Positions 47,915-54,200 of a DNA stretch of 64,000 nt are shown one piece after another; the first letter of the stretch is position 1, and each line of letters opens with the position of its first letter. The position numbers and the translations under genes are program-made. The notes under the pieces are model-generated. The model saw nothing but the letters and a program-made list of their open reading frames with translations, was not told where the DNA came from and did no database searches. The DNA comes from Vulcanimicrobiota bacterium (GTDB lineage Bacteria; Vulcanimicrobiota; Xenobia; Xenobiales; JADMJV01): the NCBI GenBank assembly GCA_050250895.1, contig JBFWNU010000013.1, forward strand, positions 1 to 64,000, given 5' to 3'.

Positions 47915-49142
47915 AGATTATCTAGAGCAGTTTCGCGGCCAGGTGGCCGAGAGCGGCACCTTCACCGTCAACGTGTCCAAGGCCCGCATCAAGTTGCGCC
48001 AGTTTCTGCTGCGTGAGCGGCATACCTATGCCTGCCACCTGGTGGCCGCCGGCATCGCCTGGGGAGCTGACGAGGTCCGGGTCGAAAACGACGCCGACGA
48101 CCTGATCGTCGAATTCGACGCACCCGGCTTCTCGGCCCATACGCTTGAGAATCCGTTCGGCCCGTTGCTCGATCCCGAGACAGCTCAGAACGCGGCCGGG
48201 CGTGAATTGGCCATCGGCCTGAACACGGCCCTGAGCTTTGACCCGCGCTGGGTAAGCGTAGAGACGCGCGGCCTGCAACTGACCCTGCACGGCGACCGTC
48301 AGGAAGTAGTGGCCACCGAGACCGGCCCCGGGGTGAGGATCCACGTCAAAGAACGCACCAGTTGGCGCACCCTTAAGAAGTATCTCTCCCGCAGTGGTCC
48401 CCCCGAAGCGGCCGCCATCCGCTGGCGCATGCGCTTCTCTCCCATTCCGATCTGGGTCAACCAGCAGCGGGTTGACGGGCCCTGCTCACTGGACCGTTGC
48501 CTGGCCCGCCTGACCATCCACGGGGCTGCCCAGGTCGGTCCGGTGGAGGGAACCTTCGGATTGCACCTCGAGGAAGAAGGCGAGTATTCGGCCGAGATCG
48601 CCCTGACCGACTCCGAGAGCTTCGCCAAGCTGGTTTTCAACGGCTTCGTCTACGAAGCCGGCCCGGTAGCCGGAGTGCGAGCGGTCGTGGCCGTGCCCCA
48701 CCTGCCGCGCGATCTGTCGCAAGAACAGCTCCGCCACTCCCCCGCCTTGAGCGAAGTGCTGTCTTTCGTCGAACAAGCCCGCGAGCGGTTGGTCAAGCAT
48801 TGCCTCGAGCACTACGAGCAGCTCGAGGCGCGCTGGCGCGCTCAGGCTCGAACTCTCGCCGTGGGGCGGTTGGACAGTCACTATGACGACGTGCAAGACC
48901 TGCCCCTCTTCGAGCTGGTCGACGGCTCCTGGACCTCGGCGCGGCGCCTGCGAGAGCTGCCTTCTCTTCGCTACTGGGCCGAGACGTGGCCGGGCCGGCC
49001 TCGCTTGAGCGAACCGGTGGTAGTGGCTGACTATCAGGTCAGACCGTTTCTGGTCCGCTGGTTCGGCGCGCGGCTGGTGGTAGCCGAAACCGAGCACAAG
49101 CAAGCGATGGCCGCGCACCTTCGCCGCCTCCGCCAAGAATAG
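47907..49142 (+). CDS. GHKL-like N-terminal domain paralogue
   Basis: ESGTFTVN.SKAR.KLRQFLL; LAIGL; LPRDLS; LPLFE..DG. Confidence 0.72.
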   Translation: MLEDYLEQFRGQVAESGTFTVNVSKARIKLRQFLLRERHTYACHLVAAGIAWGADEVRVENDADDLIVEFDAPGFSAHTLENPFGPLLDPETAQNAAGRELAIGLNTALSFDPRWVSVETRGLQLTLHGDRQEVVATETGPGVRIHVKERTSWRTLKKYLSRSGPPEAAAIRWRMRFSPIPIWVNQQRVDGPCSLDRCLARLTIHGAAQVGPVEGTFGLHLEEEGEYSAEIALTDSESFAKLVFNGFVYEAGPVAGVRAVVAVPHLPRDLSQEQLRHSPALSEVLSFVEQARERLVKHCLEHYEQLEARWRAQARTLAVGRLDSHYDDVQDLPLFELVDGSWTSARRLRELPSLRYWAETWPGRPRLSEPVVVADYQVRPFLVRWFGARLVVAETEHKQAMAAHLRRLRQE

Positions 49143-49179
49143 CGGTTCGTCTGGCTCGCCCCGGTTGCCCGCCGGGGCC

Positions 49180-50375
49180 AGGCTCGCCGCCCGGCCGCGG
49201 CGGTCGCGAGGAACTTGCCGGCTCTTCCAGCTGGAAGTACGCGAGTGGCCAGCGGGTTGGGGCAGCGCCACGGCTCGGCTGGTCGCCGCGGGCGGCGGCA
49301 CGCGAGGCTCGGCTGGCGCACCGCCCGGCCCCGGCCCTCGTGAGGAACTAGCCGGTTCTTCCAGCTGGAAGTACGCGAGTGGCCCAGCGAGTCGGGGCAG
49401 CGCCAGGGCTCGGCTGGTCGCCGCGGGCGGCGGCACGCGAGGCTCGGCTGGCGCACCGCCCGGCCGCGGCCCTCGTGAGGAACTAGCCGGTTCTTCCAGC
49501 TGGAAGTACGCGAGTGGCCCAGCGGGTTGGGGCAGCGCCACGGCTCGGCTGGTCGCCGCGGGCGGCGGCACGCGAGGCTCGGCTGGCGCACCGCCCGGCC
49601 GCGGCCCTCGTGAGGAACTAGCCGGTTCTTCCAGCTGGAAGTACGCGAGTGGCCCAGCGGGGTCGGGCAGCGCCAGGGCTCGGCTGGTCGCCGCGGGCGG
49701 CGGCACGCGAGGCTCGGCTGGCGCACCGCCCGGCCGGGGCCCTCGTGAGGAACTAGCCGGTTCTTCCAGCTGGAAGTACGCGAGTGGCCCAGTAGGTTGG
49801 GGCAGCGCCAGCGCTCGGCTGGTCGCCGCGGGCGGCGGCACGCGAGGCTCGGCTGGCGCACCGCCCGGCCGCGGCGGTCGCGAGGAACTAGCCGGTTCTT
49901 CCAGCTGGAAGTACGCGAGTGGCCCAGCGGGGTCGGGCAGCGCCAGGGCTCGGCTGGTCGCCGCGGGCGGCGGCACGCGAGGCTCGGCTGGCGCACCGCC
50001 CGGCCGGGGCCAACTTGGCTCGCCGCCGGGGCTCGGCTGGTCGCCGCGGCCCGGCCCGCCGGGGCCGAACTGGCTCGCCGCGCCCCCGGCCACTCGGCAG
50101 GACACACTGCCGAATCACGGTCGCCGCCGGGGCTCGGCTGGTCGCCGCGGCCCGGCCCGAACGCTTGCACGCTCGGTTGTGCGCCGCACAGCCCGGTTTG
50201 CTCAGTGTGCGGCGCAAGTGTGCGCCGCACAGCCTGGTTTGCTGAGTGTGCGGCGCACACCCTGGGCCCCGGCCGCTAGCCCGGGCTCGGCAGCCACACA
50301 CTGGGCCGAATTCGGCGGACCCCGCTGCCGAATCGCGGACGTCGGCCGGGGCTCGGCTGGTTCGGAGCGTCCCAC
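49180..50375. repeat. Tandem array: 6 copies of a 135-bp unit plus degenerate tail
   Basis: Palindrome CTTCCAGCTGGAAG at 49224, 49358, 49493, 49628, 49763, 49898. Confidence 0.95.
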
Positions 50376-50825
50376 CTAGTGCTCAGGAAGATTCTCCAAG
50401 TCGGCTAGGTCCTTATGGCGACCAGACGCCCGCTTGTTGGCTCGCAGGTCCTCAAGACCGAGAAAGGCGATCGGGTGGCCCTCAATGTAGGCGACTCGTC
50501 TGCGTGCATAGCAGTCGGCGAAGTTCACGCCGTCGATGTAAGTGGTGACTTCTAGCCTGGTCGGCGGCACGCCGATTCTGATGATCCCGCGCTCTCGAAG
50601 AAACAGATCGGGCGTGACTCCCTCACGGAACCCGAACTCATTGAACACCTGGACCATCTTGTGGGCCGTACCGGGAGATCTAGCAATCCAGACGTCGATG
50701 TCCCCGGTCGCTCTGGGATAGCCGTGATAGCCCACCGCATATCCACCTATGACAAGATATTCCACCTCATGGGCGTTGAGCAGTTTCAAGAACTCGAGAA
50801 AGGCCTTGGGAAACGAGGTCGCCAT
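50376..50825 (-). CDS. Nucleotidyltransferase (DUF6036/AbiEii-related)
   Basis: YLVIGGYAV..HG..RATGDID and C-terminal NK.ASGR.KDL.DL motifs. Confidence 0.88.
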   Translation of the reverse strand: MATSFPKAFLEFLKLLNAHEVEYLVIGGYAVGYHGYPRATGDIDVWIARSPGTAHKMVQVFNEFGFREGVTPDLFLRERGIIRIGVPPTRLEVTTYIDGVNFADCYARRRVAYIEGHPIAFLGLEDLRANKRASGRHKDLADLENLPEH

Positions 50826-50955
50826 AGTTTCGAACCCTGAGAGTCTCCATGATTTCCAGGCGCTGGAGCGGCGTGAGGGACCAAAAATAGAGACGATCCT
50901 CCTGGTCCGCCTGCTCAAAGCTTTCGATGACTTGAAACCCCTCGTGACCTTCCAT
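50767..50955 (-). CDS. Small partner protein (putative antitoxin) of the nucleotidyltransferase
   Basis: 62 aa, SFEQAD..D..Y.WSLTP.QRL...E.LR..YG; overlaps NTase start. Confidence 0.75.
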   Translation of the reverse strand: MEGHEGFQVIESFEQADQEDRLYFWSLTPLQRLEIMETLRVRNYGDLVSQGLSRVLETAQRP

Positions 50956-51026
50956 AGCTTAGAAAGTTCGCTCGGGCTTCTCCGTGACCCTGCCCGCTTG
51001 GCTCGTCGCGCCACCAAGGCAGCGAC

Positions 51027-52440
51027 GGTCGTGAGGAACTAGCCGGCTCTTCCAGTTGGAAGTACGCGAGTGGCCCGACCGAACACTTGTCCGCCATCGC
51101 CCGGCGGGTGTGCGCCGCACAAGCGGGTTTGGCCATTGTACGGCGCAAGTGTGCGCCGCACAGCGCGGTTTGCTCAGTGTACGGCGCACAATCTGGGCCT
51201 CGACCACTGGCCCCGGCTGCATTCGGCGGCACACCCGCCGAATTCGGCGTACCACGCTGCCAAATCGCGGTCGCCCGCCCAGTCACGACTGGCTCGCCGT
51301 GGCCAGGTTGCCCGCGGTCGCTCACCGAGGCTCGGCCGGCCGCGGCGGTCGCGAGACCGGTTCTTCCAGCTGGAAGCACGCGAGTGGCCCGACCGAACAC
51401 TTGTCCGCCATCGCCCGGCGGGTGTGCGCCGCACAAGCGGGTTTGGCCATTGTACGGCGCAAGTGTGCGCCGCACAGCGCGGTTTGCTCAGTGTACGGCG
51501 CACAATCTGGGCCTCGACCACTGGCCCCGGCTGCACTCGGCGGCACACCCTGCCGAATTCGGCGTACCACGCTGCCGAATCGCGGTCGCCCGCCCAGTCA
51601 CGACTGGCTCACCGTGGCCAGGTTGCCCGCGGTCGCTCACCGAGGCTCGGCCGGCCGCGGCGGTCGCGAGACCGGTTCTTCCAGCTGGAAGTATGCGAGT
51701 GGCCCGACCGAACACTTGTCCGCCATCGCCCGGCGGGTGTGCGCCGCACAAGCGGGTTTGGCCATTGTACGGCGCAAGTGTGCGCCGCACAGCGCGGTCT
51801 GCTCAGTGTACGGCGCACAATCTGGGCCTCGACCACTGCCCCGGCTGCATTCGGCGGCACACCCTGCCGAATTCGGCGTACCACGCTGCCGAATCGCGGT
51901 CGCCCGTCCAGTCATGACTGGCTCGCCGTGGCCAGGTTGCCCGCGGTCGCTCACCGAGGCTCGGCCGGCCGCGGCGGTCGCGAGACCGGTTCTTCCAGCT
52001 GGAAGCACGCGAGTGGCCCGACCGAACACTTGTCCGCCATCGCCCGGCGGGTGTGCGCCGCACAAGCGGGTTTGGCCATTGTACGGCGCAAGTGTGCGCC
52101 GCACAGCCCGGTTTGCTCAGTGTACGGCGCACAATCTGGGCCTCGACCACTGGCCCCGGCTGCATTCGGCGGCACACCCTGCCAAATCGCGGTCGCCGCC
52201 GGGGGCTCGGCTGGTCACCGCGGGCCGGCCGAGCACTTCCTCGCTGTCCCCGGCCGGGGTCAACTTGGCTCGCCACCCGACCGCGGCCCTCGCGAGGAAC
52301 TAGCCGGTTCTTCCAGCTGGAAGTACGCGAGTGGCCCAGCGGGTTGGGCAGCGCTAGTCCGGCAGCCCCTCCTCGCCGGCCCCCCGGTCATTCGACAGCA
52401 CACGCTGCCGAATCGCAATCGCCCGCCGCCCGCTCGCCCG
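51027..52440. repeat. Tandem array: about 4 copies of a ~315-bp composite unit
   Basis: CTTCCAG(C/T)TGGAAG at 51049, 51363, 51678, 51992, 52310; each unit has TGTGCGCCGCACA twice and most have GCCGAATTCGGC. Confidence 0.95.
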
Positions 52441-52463
52441 GAGACGGTCCGTCAAAAACCTGC

Positions 52464-52506
52464 TTGACAAATATTACCTTTCGTGTTAGCCTGGGTCACG
52501 AAAGGT
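52464..52506 (+). promoter_or_regulatory. Sigma70-type promoter with inverted-repeat operator
   Basis: TTGACA 52464-69, 17-nt spacer, TG-n-TAGCCT 52487-92; ACCTTTCGTG (52476-85) N11 CACGAAAGGT (52497-506). Confidence 0.8.
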
Positions 52507-52516
52507 TCCTCCAAAG

Positions 52517-52594
52517 ATGATGTTCGCTCGGTCCTATATTCACTCGCACCTACTCGGGGCCTCGCGCTCCGAGACGGCAGAGCCGGTCGTCTAA
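52517..52594 (+). CDS. Putative attenuator leader peptide MMFARSYIHSHLLGASRSETAEPVV
   Basis: 25 codons between promoter and terminator, GAAAGG upstream; last codons are complementary to the terminator. Confidence 0.6.
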   Translation: MMFARSYIHSHLLGASRSETAEPVV

Positions 52595-52617
52595 GCGACC
52601 GCCGAGGGTAGCCAGCC

Positions 52618-52650
52618 AAGCACCCGCTCTGCCCGGGTGCTTTTTCTTTT
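52618..52650 (+). terminator. Intrinsic terminator/attenuator directly in front of the first tRNA
   Basis: AAGCACCCG-CTCTGCC-CGGGTGCTT, with the U-tract TTTTTCTTTT at 52641-52650. Confidence 0.85.
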
Positions 52651-52728
52651 GGCCACGTAGCCCAATTGGCAAGAGGCGCGAGTTTCAGAAGCTCGAGGTT
52701 GCTGGTTCGAGTCCAGCCGTGGTCACCA
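52651..52728 (+). tRNA. tRNA-Leu(CAG) with short variable loop
   Basis: Acceptor GGCCACG/CGTGGTC, anticodon arm CGAGT-TTCAGAA-GCTCG, V-loop AGGTT, T arm GCTGG-TTCGAGT-CCAGC, A73, encoded CCA. Confidence 0.88.
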
Positions 52729-52729
52729 T

Positions 52730-52815
52730 GGGAGTTCGCCGAAGTTGGAGAGTCGGAGGCGGCTGTAACCCGTCGCGTATATCGCCAGGGGGTTCAAATC
52801 CCTCAGCTCCCACCA
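52730..52815 (+). tRNA. tRNA-Tyr(GTA)
   Basis: GGGAGTT/AGCTCCC, GGCGG-CTGTAAC-CCGTC, V-arm GCG-TATAT-CGC, TTCAAAT, A73, CCA. Confidence 0.9.
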
Positions 52816-52820
52816 AACCT

Positions 52821-52907
52821 GGACAGTTGGCCGAGTGGTAAGGCGCCGGTCTTGAAAACCGGTGAGGGCGCAAGCCTGCGTGGGTTCGAATCCTACACTG
52901 TCCGCCA
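52821..52907 (+). tRNA. tRNA-Ser(TGA)
   Basis: GGACAGT/ACTGTCC, CCGGT-CTTGAAA-ACCGG, long V-arm with GCAA loop, TTCGAAT, G73, CCA. Confidence 0.93.
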
Positions 52908-52922
52908 AATTTGCCCGAGGCG

Positions 52923-54200
52923 CTACCAACGCCTGAAGTTCAGGATGTCAGCGGTGCTCGCTCCGCCGGGGGCATCGGCCAGGGCCTGATCGTAGTGGAC
53001 GGAAGAAGAGGCCGCCATGATGATCTGGTCTCCCACCACCGAGCCATAAAGATCGCCACCCACCATGGTCACATTGGTGGTGGGGCCGTAGAAGGCGAAA
53101 AACGCCTGGGTGCCGCCAGCAATGATGACCCCGCCAGGGGGACTGTTCTGGACCTGCATTTGCAACAGCCCCGGGTTGCCCGAAGTGTTGACCACGGCGT
53201 CCTGGGCCAGGGTGACTCCGCTGCGGATCTTGACCGTGGTTGCGGTGGTGGCCGACGGCTCTAGACTGACGGTCGAGCCGGCGGCGCTCACGTCGAGGGT
53301 CTCGAAGAAGTAGGTCTGACCCTGGCGAAGTTTGAGATCCCAGCCGCTGACCACCACATCTCCGTAGACTCCCGGCAGAAGATAGCCGCTGGCGTCAAAT
53401 TGCGGGCCGGGCGGGCCCGAACCCACTGCGGAGGCGGCGGCCGTGTTGGTACCCTCCATATCCACGGGAGGCAACGGCTGCGGCTGAGGCATGTATTGCA
53501 AGCTCGAGTAAGAGAGGAAAGGAGTTCCCACCACGGCCGTGGGTGGCGCGCCAGGCGGAACCAGCACATTGCCCGTCGCCACCAGCGGCGAAAGCGGGTC
53601 GAGTTGCGAGGTGGCATCCATGACCACCGAGGCGGGGCTGGTCGAATTGACGCCAACATGAGCCTGGCCGGCTCCGATGACCCGTGAGGTGGCGTAGGAG
53701 CCGACCGACGAATCCCAGGTGTCGGTCGTGCAGTTGGCCGCCATCACCAGCCGATTGGCCGCAAAAATGGCGTTGGGATAGTTGCTCGAGGTCAGCTTGA
53801 CCACGACGCCAGCGTGGCGGTCGGGGCCGTCTTTACTTCGGCCCGTCGAGAGAATGTAGAAGGTGTCGGTGGGTAGAGCGTTGGTCCAGTTGGGGGGAGT
53901 GGCCCCGGGACCGTAGACATCCACGCTATAGGTGGCCTCTACGCTGCTGCCATCGACGGTGGCCATGGCCTGGTTGGTGAGATAGGGCACGGTGGTGGCC
54001 GCTACCGTGCCGTTGGCCACATCGACAATGGTCGCGCGGGCGCCGGCGTCAGCCGCATAGAGCGAAATGGCCGACTTCTGGTCGGCATAGACCACCCGGA
54101 GGTTGTCGGAGCCCATGGTGGCCATGCCGGCGGCTATCAGCGCGAGCAGAGCCAACACCATCAAGACCACGATAATCGCAATGCCGCGTCGGTTTCTCAT
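52923..54200 (-). CDS. PilX-like N-terminal domain protein
   Basis: MRNRRG|IAIIVVL, LYAADAG motif, C-terminal VHYD.AL. Confidence 0.82.
   Translation of the reverse strand: MRNRRGIAIIVVLMVLALLALIAAGMATMGSDNLRVVYADQKSAISLYAADAGARATIVDVANGTVAATTVPYLTNQAMATVDGSSVEATYSVDVYGPGATPPNWTNALPTDTFYILSTGRSKDGPDRHAGVVVKLTSSNYPNAIFAANRLVMAANCTTDTWDSSVGSYATSRVIGAGQAHVGVNSTSPASVVMDATSQLDPLSPLVATGNVLVPPGAPPTAVVGTPFLSYSSLQYMPQPQPLPPVDMEGTNTAAASAVGSGPPGPQFDASGYLLPGVYGDVVVSGWDLKLRQGQTYFFETLDVSAAGSTVSLEPSATTATTVKIRSGVTLAQDAVVNTSGNPGLLQMQVQNSPPGGVIIAGGTQAFFAFYGPTTNVTMVGGDLYGSVVGDQIIMAASSSVHYDQALADAPGGASTADILNFRRW

What the first reader, a model, noticed from the sequence alone, without database searches (positions are those of the whole stretch)
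52464..52907. tRNA mini-operon under leader-peptide attenuation plus operator control
Seen, in order: promoter TTGACA-17-TAGCCT; a 25-codon ORF (52517-52594); a strong intrinsic terminator whose U-tract ends at the base before tRNA-Leu; then Leu, Tyr and Ser tRNAs. Bases 52576-52587 (GGCAGAGCCGGT, codons 20-24 of the leader) pair 11 of 12 with 52622-52633 (ACCCGCTCTGCC, terminator 5' arm and loop), an antiterminator incompatible with the terminator. Alternative hairpins lie at 52553-73 and 52585-600. A ribosome reaching the stop would mask the antiterminator and cause termination; a stalled or absent ribosome would allow read-through. The leader has 4 Ser, 1 Tyr and 2 tandem Leu codons, the same amino acids as the three tRNAs, though CTA/CTC are not read by CAG. 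Known: this logic governs amino-acid operons and antibiotic-inducible genes, and a cryptic tRNA operon induced by translational stress exists in Anabaena under a protein repressor. I do not know of leader-peptide attenuation described for tRNA genes. Inference: a reserve tRNA set switched on when translation fails.
Basis: partly seen in the sequence, partly recalled or inferred. Interest (0 to 1): 0.88.

Follow-up and report, generated by a model that had tools for sequence, protein, structure and literature searches.

The report
Extra tRNA trio behind leader terminator
Three extra, virus-type tRNA genes sit behind a normal-looking tRNA promoter, but an unusually long leader carrying a small reading frame and a transcription stop signal lies between them; it could be a new kind of switch for tRNA genes, though nothing yet shows that it switches.

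Summary

New evidence for a real unit:
- The promoter matches the class used by this genome's own tRNA genes.
- The 158-nt promoter-to-tRNA distance is the longest of 28 tRNA units.
- Canonical terminators are rare here.
- Folding favours the antiterminator (pair probability 0.85-0.9, against 0.07-0.1 for the terminator).

The three tRNAs are extra copies of virus-associated types, including a short-variable-loop tRNA-Leu.

Against leader-peptide attenuation:
- The leader has no homologue in 41 relatives, 401 genomes of the phylum, or the viral contigs scanned.
- The only related cluster (same genus) has a similar hairpin but no antiterminator and a different upstream ORF.
- The antiterminator is only marginally unusual against natural-sequence controls (30-36 of 800).
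- Ser/Tyr/Leu codons are not enriched (P = 0.21).
- No expression data exist.

Verdict: a real and odd accessory tRNA operon with a self-masked terminator. I put ribosome sensing at about 0.2; it is untested.

The parts
52464..52492 (+). Sigma-70-type promoter: -35 TTGACA (52464-69), 17-nt spacer, TG (52484-85), -10 TAGCCT (52487-92). The predicted start of transcription is about 52498-52501.
   Evidence: Sequence. It is the same class as the promoters of this genome's housekeeping tRNA genes. The motif occurs only 26 times genome-wide. The start site is inferred from spacing, not measured.
52476..52506 (.). Perfect 10-bp inverted repeat (52476-85 / 52497-506, 11-nt gap) bracketing the -10 box and the predicted start site. 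It looks like an operator.
   Evidence: 100% complementary. It is unique in the genome. Such repeats occur 0.079 per kb on contig C2. No binding protein has been identified.
52517..52594 (+). 25-codon ORF (ATG ATG ... TAA). It is the only ATG-started ORF lying wholly inside the predicted leader transcript.
   Evidence: GAAAGG at 52500-05 is complementary to the 16S 3' end and lies 11 nt before the ATG. There is no core GGAG/GAGG/AGGA motif. GC by codon position is 0.58/0.46/0.77. Translation has not been shown.
52553..52573 (+). Leader hairpin A (8 bp, 5-nt loop), inside codons 13-19.
   Evidence: Minimum-energy folds.
52584..52601 (+). Leader hairpin B (7 bp, 4-nt loop CUAA). The loop holds the stop codon.
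52576..52583 (+). 5' strand of the antiterminator. It pairs with 52626-52633. A second helix, 52546-51 with 52635-40, sequesters the terminator's 3' arm.
   Evidence: Pair list. The 12-nt repeat is 92% complementary. Ensemble pair probability is 0.85-0.9. It is already the best fold once transcription has reached 52633.
52618..52650 (+). Intrinsic terminator: 9-bp stem (6 G-C pairs), 7-nt loop, U-tract running to the base before the first tRNA.
   Evidence: -14.5 kcal/mol, z = -3.67. Only 0.07-0.1 pair probability in the full-leader ensemble.
52651..52728 (+). tRNA with Leu anticodon CAG, short 5-nt variable loop (type I shape), A73, encoded CCA.
   Evidence: Rfam tRNA 56.9 bits; 84.1 bits against a model of virus-associated short tRNA-Leu. 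The housekeeping Leu(cag) is an 87-nt gene at C1:876191.
52730..52815 (+). tRNA-Tyr(GTA) with a long variable arm. It is atypical: C at position 8 and a low model score.
   Evidence: Rfam 31.1 bits against a gathering score of 29. Its D-arm motif occurs in 39 viral-contig stretches. The housekeeping Tyr is at C7:176062.
52821..52907 (+). tRNA-Ser(TGA) with a long variable arm.
   Evidence: Rfam 63.7 bits. It is 95% identical to the Ser tRNA of the same-genus cluster and 78% identical to this genome's own Ser(tga) at C1:3474273.

Best explanation
This is an accessory tRNA operon.

What it contains: three extra tRNA genes of virus-associated type: a short-variable-loop tRNA-Leu(CAG), tRNA-Tyr and tRNA-Ser(UGA). 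They duplicate a complete housekeeping set.

How it is transcribed: from a host-type tRNA promoter whose -10 box and start site lie inside a perfect 10-bp palindrome. The palindrome is most likely the operator of an unidentified repressor.

What is unusual: unlike every other tRNA unit in the genome, a leader of about 150 nt separates promoter and tRNA and ends in a canonical terminator that touches the first tRNA. There is no room for another promoter, so the tRNAs can only be made by reading through this terminator.

How read-through happens: the leader's own fold pairs 52576-83 with 52626-33 and 52546-51 with 52635-40. This fold forms before the terminator's 3' arm is transcribed and dominates the ensemble. 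Naked leader RNA is therefore predicted to read through.

My reading: the main control is at the promoter/operator. The terminator is a largely self-masked, leaky brake, possibly carried in with the tRNA cassette. It needs no peptide sensing.

Shown: the sequence anatomy, its rarity, the extra-copy status and the virus-type affinity. Inferred: the transcription start, read-through, repressor binding, and whether the tRNAs are charged.
For: Promoter and leader:
- 28 of 45 tRNA units in this genome have a promoter-like site scoring at least 9 of 12 within 200 nt. In 27 of them the -10 box ends 8-73 nt before the tRNA; here it ends 158 nt before.
- TTGACA-N14-TGn-TAnnnT occurs 26 times genome-wide, several at tRNA genes.
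- The palindrome is perfect, unique in the genome and of a rare kind.

Terminator:
- It is canonical and abuts the tRNA.
- Such terminators are scarce in this genome: 81 sites against 40 in a reversed-sequence control on 985 kb.

Folding:
- The full leader folds at -57.0 kcal/mol as the antiterminator, against -54.2 with the terminator forced.
- Pair probabilities are 0.85-0.9 for the antiterminator and 0.07-0.1 for the terminator. The antiterminator is already the best fold at prefix 52633.

The tRNAs:
- They are extra copies.
- The D-arm signature of the short Leu occurs in 2 of 40 genomes of the order but in more than 120 viral-contig stretches. There, 74 of 81 motif hits in the first 80 loci lie in 74-78-nt tRNAs with Leu anticodons.

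The same-genus cluster:
- It has an 8-bp-identical hairpin stem upstream of its tRNAs, after a 65-codon ORF, in an unrelated chromosomal context. This fits a terminator that travels with the cassette.

Precedent: an accessory tRNA operon repressed at its promoter is known in Anabaena (PMC8421152 abstract and passages; PMC10272220 passages).
Against: - There are no expression data. No RNA run was on offer, so read-through, the start site and tRNA maturation are all predictions.
- A terminator that is masked by default has no obvious purpose unless something unmasks it. That favours a regulated switch over a leaky relic.
- The hairpin similarity to the same-genus cluster is not significant as an alignment: score 30 against 25.5 +/- 3.6 in shuffles.
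- The antiterminator complementarity is stronger than in most controls (6 of 500 shuffles, 36 of 800 natural segments), which a pure 'relic' reading must put down to chance.
- No repressor gene was found nearby.
- Thermodynamic folding ignores kinetics, RNA polymerase pausing and ribosomes.
Confidence: 0.4

Rival explanations
1. Ribosome-mediated (leader-peptide) attenuation. A ribosome that completes the 25-codon ORF covers 52577-52606, blocks the antiterminator strand and lets the terminator form. A stalled, slow or absent ribosome leaves the antiterminator in place and the tRNAs are transcribed. The trio would then be induced when translation falters.
For: - Masked folds behave exactly this way. 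Masking a ribosome at the stop codon gives the terminator; masking at codons 12-13 or 6-7 gives the antiterminator.
- The stop codon sits in the loop of hairpin B, next to the antiterminator strand.
- The ORF is the only ATG-started ORF in the predicted transcript.
- GAAAGG, complementary to the 16S 3' end, lies 11 nt upstream of the ATG.
- GC by codon position (0.58/0.46/0.77) resembles that of coding frames in this genome.
- A very rare Leu codon, CTA (3% of Leu codons), sits at codon 12.
- The terminator is otherwise masked, so a cis-encoded unmasking device would make sense.
- One other array (L148) also places an ORF stop directly before a hairpin that competes with a terminator-like stem upstream of its first tRNA.
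Against: - The leader ORF and antiterminator are found only in this genome.
- The same-genus cluster keeps its terminator in the minimum-energy fold. Its best upstream complement is no better than 104 of 300 shuffles.
- 5 of 6 other tRNA arrays with an abutting terminator show no antiterminator.
- Ser+Tyr+Leu make up 7 of 25 codons, P = 0.21; 4 Ser, P = 0.054.
- By standard wobble rules (my knowledge) only TCG, TCG and TAT could be read by the encoded tRNAs. CTA, CTC and TCC could not.
- There is no core Shine-Dalgarno motif, although only 359 of 1059 ORFs have one in my crude count.
- Against natural-sequence controls the antiterminator is only marginal.
- More tRNA would not relieve amino-acid starvation (inference).
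Confidence: 0.2
2. The promoter, ORF and terminator form a self-contained small gene, either a roughly 150-nt small RNA or a 25-residue peptide gene, that happens to lie upstream of a promoterless tRNA cassette. In the cell the terminator works, and the tRNAs are a mostly silent relic.
For: - Promoter, about 150 nt, then hairpin and U-tract is the standard anatomy of a bacterial small-RNA gene.
- The locus lies in a repeat-rich, rearranging region.
- Metagenome relatives differ in composition around it. In all four runs the aligned pieces end at 52778, and one contig joins 52595 to 52812.
- The Tyr tRNA barely passes the tRNA model: 31.1 bits against a threshold of 29.
- E. coli LeuRS did not charge the one type I bacterial tRNA-Leu that has been studied (PMC6614811, passages), so the Leu gene may not function in every host.
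Against: - The predicted ensemble masks the terminator.
- All three tRNAs keep full cloverleaves and encode CCA.
- The Ser and Leu genes are 95% and 89% identical to those of the same-genus cluster while the flanks are unrelated. That suggests selection on the tRNAs or recent acquisition.
- Rfam has no match for the leader apart from chance terminator-like hits.
Confidence: 0.2
3. The terminator/antiterminator choice is real but is set by a factor other than a translating ribosome, for example an RNA-binding protein, a small RNA or a tRNA binding the 52576-52606 region.
For: The alternative folds are nearly isoenergetic, 2.8 kcal/mol apart, so a modest ligand could tip the balance. Hairpins A and B are stable, discrete modules.
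Against: No Rfam family matches (T-box, riboswitch or protein-binding leader) at E up to 1 on 3.5 kb or up to 10 on the leader itself. There is no conservation from which to define a binding site. No candidate factor gene lies nearby.
Confidence: 0.1
4. Part of the leader (about 52575-52602) is the decayed remnant of another short tRNA-Leu gene from the original array, and its hairpins are leftovers with no function.
For: Local alignment to the D-loop and anticodon arm of the same-genus short Leu(taa) scores 21, reached by 1 of 300 shuffles. Alignment to the Leu(cag) scores 20, reached by 4 of 300 (8 tRNAs were tested).
Against: A covariance model built from 55 short tRNA-Leu sequences gives only 3.9 bits (E about 0.9) anywhere in the leader. 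The Rfam tRNA model finds nothing there at E up to 10. With 8 comparisons the alignment result is borderline.
Confidence: 0.05

Closest known systems
Leader-peptide transcription attenuators of amino-acid operons (trp, his, leu, pheL type) and ribosome-stalling attenuators of antibiotic-inducible genes (for example bmrCD, mef/mel, msrD)
   Same: The layout is the same: promoter, short ORF, mutually exclusive antiterminator and terminator, and a stop codon placed so that a terminating ribosome would cover the antiterminator strand. Paper titles and abstracts were seen only in the search listing.
   Different: The controlled genes are tRNAs, not protein genes. There is no run of regulatory codons, no pairing that would cause termination when translation is absent and no conservation. 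My searches found no paper describing attenuation of a tRNA operon. One search listed 15 of 202 papers, and none concerned tRNA genes. PMC2965389 has 0 occurrences of 'tRNA gene' or 'tRNA operon'.
Anabaena sp. PCC 7120 cryptic trn operon, repressed by the ribbon-helix-helix protein TrcR
   Same: Both are accessory tRNA genes that duplicate housekeeping ones, and both have a candidate repressor site at the -10 region. The Anabaena operon is induced by translation-inhibiting antibiotics (PMC8421152 abstract; PMC10272220 passages).
   Different: Anabaena has 26 genes on a megaplasmid; this locus has 3 genes on the chromosome. Neither paper mentions attenuation, a leader or a terminator (0 occurrences each). 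A TrcR homologue was not searched for here.
Type I (short variable loop) tRNA-Leu(CAA) of Streptomyces coelicolor
   Same: Both are bacterial tRNA-Leu genes with a short variable loop that coexist with normal long-arm tRNA-Leu genes. The Streptomyces tRNA is charged by its host's single LeuRS (PMC6614811, abstract and passages).
   Different: The anticodon is CAG and the host is different. This gene belongs to a sequence family seen mainly on viral contigs. The paper does not mention phages (0 occurrences). E. coli LeuRS did not charge the Streptomyces type I tRNA, so charging in this host is uncertain.
Phage tRNA gene arrays
   Same: The genes are tightly packed (1-nt and 5-nt spacers). The short Leu and the Tyr carry D-arm signatures shared with many IMG/VR contigs. 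Some phage arrays also have a terminator touching a tRNA: 3 of 1100 tRNAs, and 9 of 184 arrays within 60 nt of the first tRNA.
   Different: No phage genes flank the trio or the same-genus cluster. There are only three genes. The promoter is of the host's own tRNA type. In 5 of 6 abutting-terminator cases in other arrays the terminator is not masked.

Membership tests
Ribosome-mediated (leader-peptide) transcription attenuator | [quoted passage not shown] | tested here: met
   9-bp stem plus U-tract at 52618-52650, directly before the tRNA. The promoter lies 158 nt upstream.
Ribosome-mediated (leader-peptide) transcription attenuator | Antiterminator structure that cannot coexist with the terminator | tested here: met
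   Helices 52576-83:52626-33 and 52546-51:52635-40 form in the minimum-energy fold with 0.85-0.9 pair probability. Statistical support is modest: 6-11 of 500 shuffles and 30-36 of 800 natural segments do as well.
Ribosome-mediated (leader-peptide) transcription attenuator | Short ORF placed so that ribosome position decides which structure forms | tested here: met
   ORF 52517-52594. Masking a ribosome at the stop codon yields the terminator; masking at codons 6-7 or 12-13 yields the antiterminator. This is geometry only.
Ribosome-mediated (leader-peptide) transcription attenuator | The ORF is translated (ribosome-binding site, start context) | tested here: inconclusive
   There is no GGAG/GAGG/AGGA motif. 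GAAAGG, complementary to the 16S 3' end, lies 11 nt upstream. Only 359 of 1059 ORFs carry a core motif in this genome.
Ribosome-mediated (leader-peptide) transcription attenuator | Regulatory codons matching the controlled product | tested here: not met
   Ser+Tyr+Leu make up 7 of 25 codons, P = 0.21. By wobble rules (my knowledge) only 3 of those 7 codons can be read by the encoded tRNAs.
Ribosome-mediated (leader-peptide) transcription attenuator | Conservation or covariation of the ORF and helices in relatives | tested here: not met
   No leader homologue in 41 relatives, 401 genomes of the phylum or a viral-contig scan. The same-genus cluster lacks the antiterminator.
Ribosome-mediated (leader-peptide) transcription attenuator | Read-through responds to leader translation | not testable with these tools
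   No RNA run was on offer. This needs reporters or Term-seq.
Type I (short variable loop) tRNA-Leu | Cloverleaf with a 4-6-nt variable loop, a Leu anticodon, A73 and a Leu-type D-loop (A14, A15, G18G19) | tested here: met
   In an alignment of 55 sequences A73, A35 and G18G19 are invariant. The window's gene scores 84.1 bits against the family model.
Type I (short variable loop) tRNA-Leu | Charged with leucine by the host LeuRS | not testable with these tools
   Precedent cuts both ways: Streptomyces LeuRS charges a type I tRNA-Leu and E. coli LeuRS does not (PMC6614811).
Anabaena-type cryptic tRNA operon (long array under TrcR) | Long array of tRNA genes (26 in Anabaena, up to 43 in the family) | tested here: not met
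   Only three genes. The abstract of PMC8421152 gives up to 43.
Anabaena-type cryptic tRNA operon (long array under TrcR) | Repressor binding site at the promoter, and a TrcR-like repressor | tested here: inconclusive
   A palindrome brackets the -10 box. No repressor was identified and a TrcR homologue was not searched for.
T-box or other curated cis-regulatory leader RNA | Match to an Rfam covariance model | tested here: not met
   The only matches are to tRNA models, plus chance terminator-like hits below threshold.

The most novel reading that the evidence does not exclude
This is the first ribosome-sensing attenuator found in front of tRNA genes. A virus-type reserve tRNA set is held off twice: by a repressor at a palindromic operator, and by a terminator that forms only while ribosomes efficiently finish a 25-codon leader ORF. 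The tRNAs would then be produced when translation initiation or elongation fails, for example under antibiotics, tRNA-cleaving toxins or phage attack.
Probability: 0.17. Interest if true: 0.85.

Novelty: new variant of a known kind. Interest (0 to 1): 0.5.

Why it matters
tRNA genes are usually treated as constitutively or growth-rate controlled at the promoter. Transcription attenuation in front of tRNA genes has not been described in the papers I could search.

If the leader does switch, it would link tRNA supply directly to the performance of the translation machinery. It would be a second, mechanistically different example, beside the Anabaena trn operon, of a stress-inducible reserve tRNA set.

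Even on the conservative reading the locus is a compact test case for three questions:
- how a bacterium domesticates virus-type tRNAs under one of its own tRNA promoters;
- whether a type I tRNA-Leu works beside normal type II ones;
- what a terminator touching a tRNA 5' end does to RNase P processing.

The reporter and in-vitro transcription experiments that would settle it are simple.

Tried and rejected
Expression. No RNA holder was listed for the stretch. The 20 DNA holders listed each hold at most 0.20 of the sampled words. Laying four sludge metagenomes gave only short contigs, with no cover of 52444-52563, so nothing can be said about transcription.

Homologues of the leader.
- BLAST in 41 relatives found none.
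- BLAST in 401 genomes of the phylum gave a best non-self match of 29 nt, E = 6e-4. All such hits are short, chance-level matches. That tally includes 10 unpublished genomes (G370, G237, G344, G263, G329, G328, G232, G275, G177, G212), which contribute only to this negative count.
- A viral-contig pattern joining the hairpin's 3' arm to the tRNA start found 0 matches.
- Metagenome and genome-collection scans with the tRNA 5' half found 3 and 2 loci. All are tRNA arrays without this leader.

Known RNA families. No Rfam match for the leader.

tRNA-remnant idea. A local alignment hinted at it, but two covariance models did not support it.

Homology of the hairpin with the same-genus cluster. The stems share an identical 8-mer, but the alignment score is not above shuffles.

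Prophage context. No phage, integrase or defence families were found among the 17 window ORFs scanned with Pfam. The 9 window ORFs scanned with PADLOC had no defence match. The 10 ORFs scanned around the same-genus cluster also had no phage families.

BLAST of the short Leu against GenBank phages. The 25 top rows shown were tRNAs annotated as other isotypes; this was not informative.

A caution on method. The mononucleotide-shuffle duplex test gave low counts for every AT-rich phage case (0-4 of 200). That shows the test is too lenient, so I re-ran the window's test against natural genome segments and rely on that result.

Taxon. Not determined. The sister contig's record title says 'uncultured Burkholderiales bacterium'. 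I could not verify this, and it sits oddly with the small number of families (21) in the phylum sample.

Supplementary files of papers were not opened. Those of PMC8421152 and PMC6614811 might list tRNA structures or type I tRNA-Leu occurrences that bear on the novelty of the virus-associated family. I did not use the large protein searches, structure prediction or complex prediction, because the finding concerns RNA.
Full report
WHAT IS THERE. The window is contig C13 (1-64000) of a 9.5-Mb, 63% G+C genome in 17 contigs. ARAGORN finds three adjacent tRNA genes on the + strand:
- a 78-nt tRNA with the Leu anticodon CAG (52651-52728);
- tRNA-Tyr(GTA) (52730-52815);
- tRNA-Ser(TGA) (52821-52907).
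They are separated by 1 and 5 nt. Rfam confirms the Leu (56.9 bits) and the Ser (63.7 bits). The Tyr only just passes, at 31.1 bits against a gathering score of 29.

- TTGACA (52464-69), a 17-nt spacer and TAGCCT (52487-92);
- a 25-codon ORF at 52517-52594;
- a 9-bp, 7-nt-loop hairpin at 52618-52642 whose U-tract ends at 52650, one base before the first tRNA;
- a 12-nt, 92%-complementary repeat between 52576-87 and 52622-33;
- hairpins at 52553-73 and 52584-601.

THE tRNAs ARE EXTRA AND OF A VIRUS-ASSOCIATED TYPE. The genome carries 64 tRNA calls, including an ordinary 87-nt Leu(cag), a Tyr(gta) and a Ser(tga) elsewhere. The trio's sequences differ clearly from those copies (Ser is 78% identical to the housekeeping copy).

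The 'Leu' gene has a 5-nt variable loop, that is, type I shape. Its D-arm signature was found in 2 of 40 genomes of the order: this genome and a same-genus genome, G001.
- In the first 80 of those loci, 74 of 81 motif hits lie in 74-78-nt tRNAs with Leu anticodons (tag 34, caa 26, gag 6, taa 5, cag 2, aag 1). The other 7 overlap no ARAGORN call.
- Across 124 loci there are 102 distinct such sequences.
- I aligned 55 sequences: the window's, 3 from G001 and 51 of the 102. A73, A35, G18G19 and A14/A15 are invariant.
- A covariance model built from that alignment scores the window's gene at 84.1 bits. The next best hit in the genome scores 64.5 bits.

The Tyr D-arm motif occurs in 39 viral stretches. 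Of the 34 ARAGORN tRNAs holding it in those loci, 27 are tRNA-Tyr and 7 tRNA-Trp.

No phage genes flank the trio. Downstream are pilin-like genes and upstream is a non-coding repeat field.

G001 has a five-gene cluster: short Leu(taa), short Leu(gag), Ser(tga) 95% identical to the window's, short Leu(cag) and Gly. It sits in an unrelated chromosomal context next to a TrmO gene.

A type I tRNA-Leu that coexists with type II ones and is charged by the host LeuRS is documented for Streptomyces coelicolor. E. coli LeuRS did not charge that tRNA (PMC6614811, abstract and passages). A review states that E. coli leucine identity rests on A73 and D/T-loop tertiary contacts, not on the long arm (PMC9976931, passages).

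THE PROMOTER IS CREDIBLE AND THE LEADER IS ABNORMAL. Housekeeping tRNA genes of this genome have obvious sigma-70-type promoters, TTGAC(A/G/C)-17-TAnnnT, often with a TG extension.
- Of 45 tRNA transcription units, 28 have a site scoring at least 9 of 12 within 200 nt.
- In 27 of those the -10 box ends 8-73 nt before the tRNA, mostly 8-15 nt.
- In the trio it ends 158 nt before.
TTGACA-N14-TGn-TAnnnT occurs 26 times in the genome. Base composition predicts about 0.8 (my arithmetic).

A perfect 10+10 inverted repeat (52476-85 / 52497-506) brackets the -10 box and the predicted start site. It is unique in the genome. Repeats of this kind occur 0.079 per kb on contig C2.

Canonical hairpin-plus-U-tract terminators are uncommon here: 81 sites against 40 in a reversed-sequence control on 985 kb. 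One ending within 25 nt of a tRNA is seen for 1 of 64 tRNAs in this genome, which is this one. It is seen for 3 of 1100 tRNAs in the viral and metagenome loci.

FOLDING. The leader (52499-52650) has a minimum free energy of -57.0 kcal/mol in a fold that pairs 52576-83 with 52626-33 and 52546-51 with 52635-40. Forcing the terminator gives -54.2.
- In the ensemble the antiterminator pairs have probability 0.85-0.9 and the terminator pairs 0.07-0.1.
- The antiterminator is already the best fold when transcription has reached 52633, before the terminator's 3' arm exists.
- Masking 52577-52606 (a ribosome at the stop codon) restores the terminator. Masking a ribosome at codons 12-13 or 6-7 leaves the antiterminator.

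How unusual is this?
- Whole-leader stability is not unusual (z = -1.55).
- With 500 dinucleotide shuffles of 52499-52617 placed before the same terminator, the terminator is lost from the best fold in 48. The energy gap is matched in 11 and the duplex energy (-21.0) in 6.
- With 800 natural 119-nt segments of this genome at similar G+C, the figures are 102, 30 and 36.
The pairing is real but only marginally beyond what GC-rich sequence provides.

THE ORF. It is the only ATG-started ORF within the predicted transcript.
- It lacks a core Shine-Dalgarno motif, but GAAAGG, complementary to the 16S 3' end, lies 11 nt upstream. Only 359 of 1059 long ORFs have a core motif, against 132 in a control window.
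- Its GC by codon position (0.58/0.46/0.77) resembles that of coding frames here. With 26 codons this is weak evidence.
- Ser+Tyr+Leu make up 7 of 25 codons, against a genome frequency of 0.199 (P = 0.21). Four Ser gives P = 0.054.
- By standard wobble rules (my knowledge) the encoded tRNAs could read only TCG, TCG and TAT among those seven codons.
- CTA at codon 12 is very rare, 3% of Leu codons.

CONSERVATION. This is the weak point.
- No part of query positions 1-211 (promoter and leader) matched in 41 relatives.
- A leader-only search in 401 genomes of the phylum gave only short chance matches.
- A viral-contig scan for the hairpin-tRNA junction found nothing.
- In four sludge metagenomes, contigs of a close relative cover 52634-52778 with 7-9 differences. 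These include a CAG-to-GAG anticodon change at 52686.
- Other contigs in those runs cover 52812-52997. No contig covers 52444-52563.
- One 514-nt contig has 168 nt upstream of 52634 that do not align at 80% likeness.
- One contig joins 52595 to 52812 with a 31-letter side, a kind of joint the tool warns about.
- In G001 a hairpin with the same 8-bp stem sequence lies 35 nt upstream of the first tRNA, 12 nt after the stop of a 65-codon ORF. Its terminator stays in the best fold, and its best upstream complement is matched by 104 of 300 shuffles.
- As an alignment, the hairpin similarity is not significant: score 30 against 25.5 +/- 3.6.

Among 184 arrays of at least 3 tRNAs in the fetched loci, 9 have a terminator-like hairpin within 60 nt of the first tRNA. 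The opposite-strand control gives 10. Of six abutting cases tested, five keep their terminator in the best fold. The sixth (L148) has a weak 6-bp stem, and there an ORF stop immediately precedes a competing hairpin.

INTERPRETATION. The tRNAs have no room for a promoter of their own, so any expression must pass the terminator. I see four readings.
- (a) Operator-controlled accessory tRNA operon whose terminator is largely self-masked, a leaky brake possibly carried in with the cassette: 0.40.
- (c) A self-contained small RNA or peptide gene upstream of a mostly silent tRNA relic: 0.20.
- (d) A switch set by some other factor: 0.10.
A fifth idea, that part of the leader is a decayed tRNA, is not supported by covariance models.

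Reading (b) is attractive because a terminator that is masked by default makes most sense if something unmasks it, and the only cis-encoded candidate is a ribosome on the ORF. Against it, the leader is an orphan, the codon argument fails, and the statistics are marginal.

COMPARISON WITH WHAT IS KNOWN. The logic matches trp-type and antibiotic-responsive leader-peptide attenuators, but two defining features were tested and not met: cognate regulatory codons and conservation. The biology resembles the Anabaena trn operon, which is repressed at its promoter by the RHH protein TrcR and induced by translation inhibitors. Neither Anabaena paper mentions attenuation, leaders or terminators. I found no paper describing attenuation of tRNA genes. 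This rests on two searches and one paper's text, and subscription journals are not covered.

VERDICT. If real, the feature is a new variant of a known kind. Interest is 0.5. The most novel reading has probability about 0.17 and would deserve about 0.85.

Supplementary files of papers were not seen.

Noticed in passing
window 49114-52440: A 3.3-kb non-coding repeat field lies directly upstream of the promoter: a 135-nt unit x 6.1 copies (49187-50011) and a 314-nt unit x 3.6 copies (51043-52187). Both are built from palindromic modules. TTCCAGCTGGAA occurs 135 times and GTGTGCGCCGCACA 78 times across the genome. No ORF between 49142 and 52923 passes a GC3 filter.
   Followed up: partly
IMG/VR loci L025-L144; window 52651-52728; L002 1427-1760: A large family of short-variable-loop (type I shape) tRNAs with Leu anticodons shares the D-arm GTAGCCCAAYTGGCA(N)GAGGCG. 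A73 and A35 are invariant. It occurs in more than 120 viral-contig stretches with six different Leu anticodons, often two or more per array. The one paper I found on bacterial type I tRNA-Leu (PMC6614811) does not mention phages.
   Followed up: partly
L002 1351-1760 (G001:C33, minus strand): The same-genus genome has three short tRNA-Leu genes with different anticodons (taa, gag, cag), plus Ser and Gly, next to a TrmO tRNA-methyltransferase gene. Unlike the window's Leu, these Leu genes lack an encoded CCA.
   Followed up: partly
window 52651-52907: The trio is exactly the three isotypes that have long variable arms in bacteria (Leu, Tyr, Ser), although the Leu here is the short form. By my rough estimate the chance of this set is about 1 in 1000. 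I did not test any link to toxins or defences that target such tRNAs.
   Followed up: no
window 50376-50822 (-): A low-G+C (55-59%) ORF between the two repeat arrays has a sub-threshold match to DUF6036, a nucleotidyltransferase of unknown function (E = 2.8e-4, 21.2 bits against a cut-off of 23.6). It has no PADLOC match.
   Followed up: partly
window 52634-52997, in coded runs X1, X2, X3, X7: Sludge-metagenome relatives carry the short Leu with a GAG anticodon (52686 C>G). In all four runs their similarity stops at 52778, inside the Tyr gene, which suggests mosaic tRNA genes. One contig joins 52595 to 52812, skipping the terminator, Leu and Tyr.
   Followed up: no
L148 5098-5427 (Myxococcales MAG contig, minus strand): Upstream of a tRNA array (20 tRNAs on the contig), an ORF stop is immediately followed by a strong hairpin. 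The 3' arm of that hairpin overlaps the 5' arm of a T8-tailed stem 24 nt before the first tRNA. This layout is reminiscent of the window's.
   Followed up: partly
genome G000: C5:136419-136491, C1:2905514-2905594, C3:556962-557049, C6:5059-5141 and others: There are several odd ARAGORN calls: a 73-nt 'Leu(cag)', an 81-nt 'Ser(aga)', an 88-nt 'Ala(ggc)' and an 83-nt 'Thr(cgt)'. None has a promoter-like site upstream, so they are probably false positives or pseudogenes.
   Followed up: no
genome G000, contig C2: Canonical hairpin-plus-U-tract terminators are scarce: 81 sites against 40 in a reversed-sequence control on 985 kb. Most genes here presumably end transcription some other way.
   Followed up: partly
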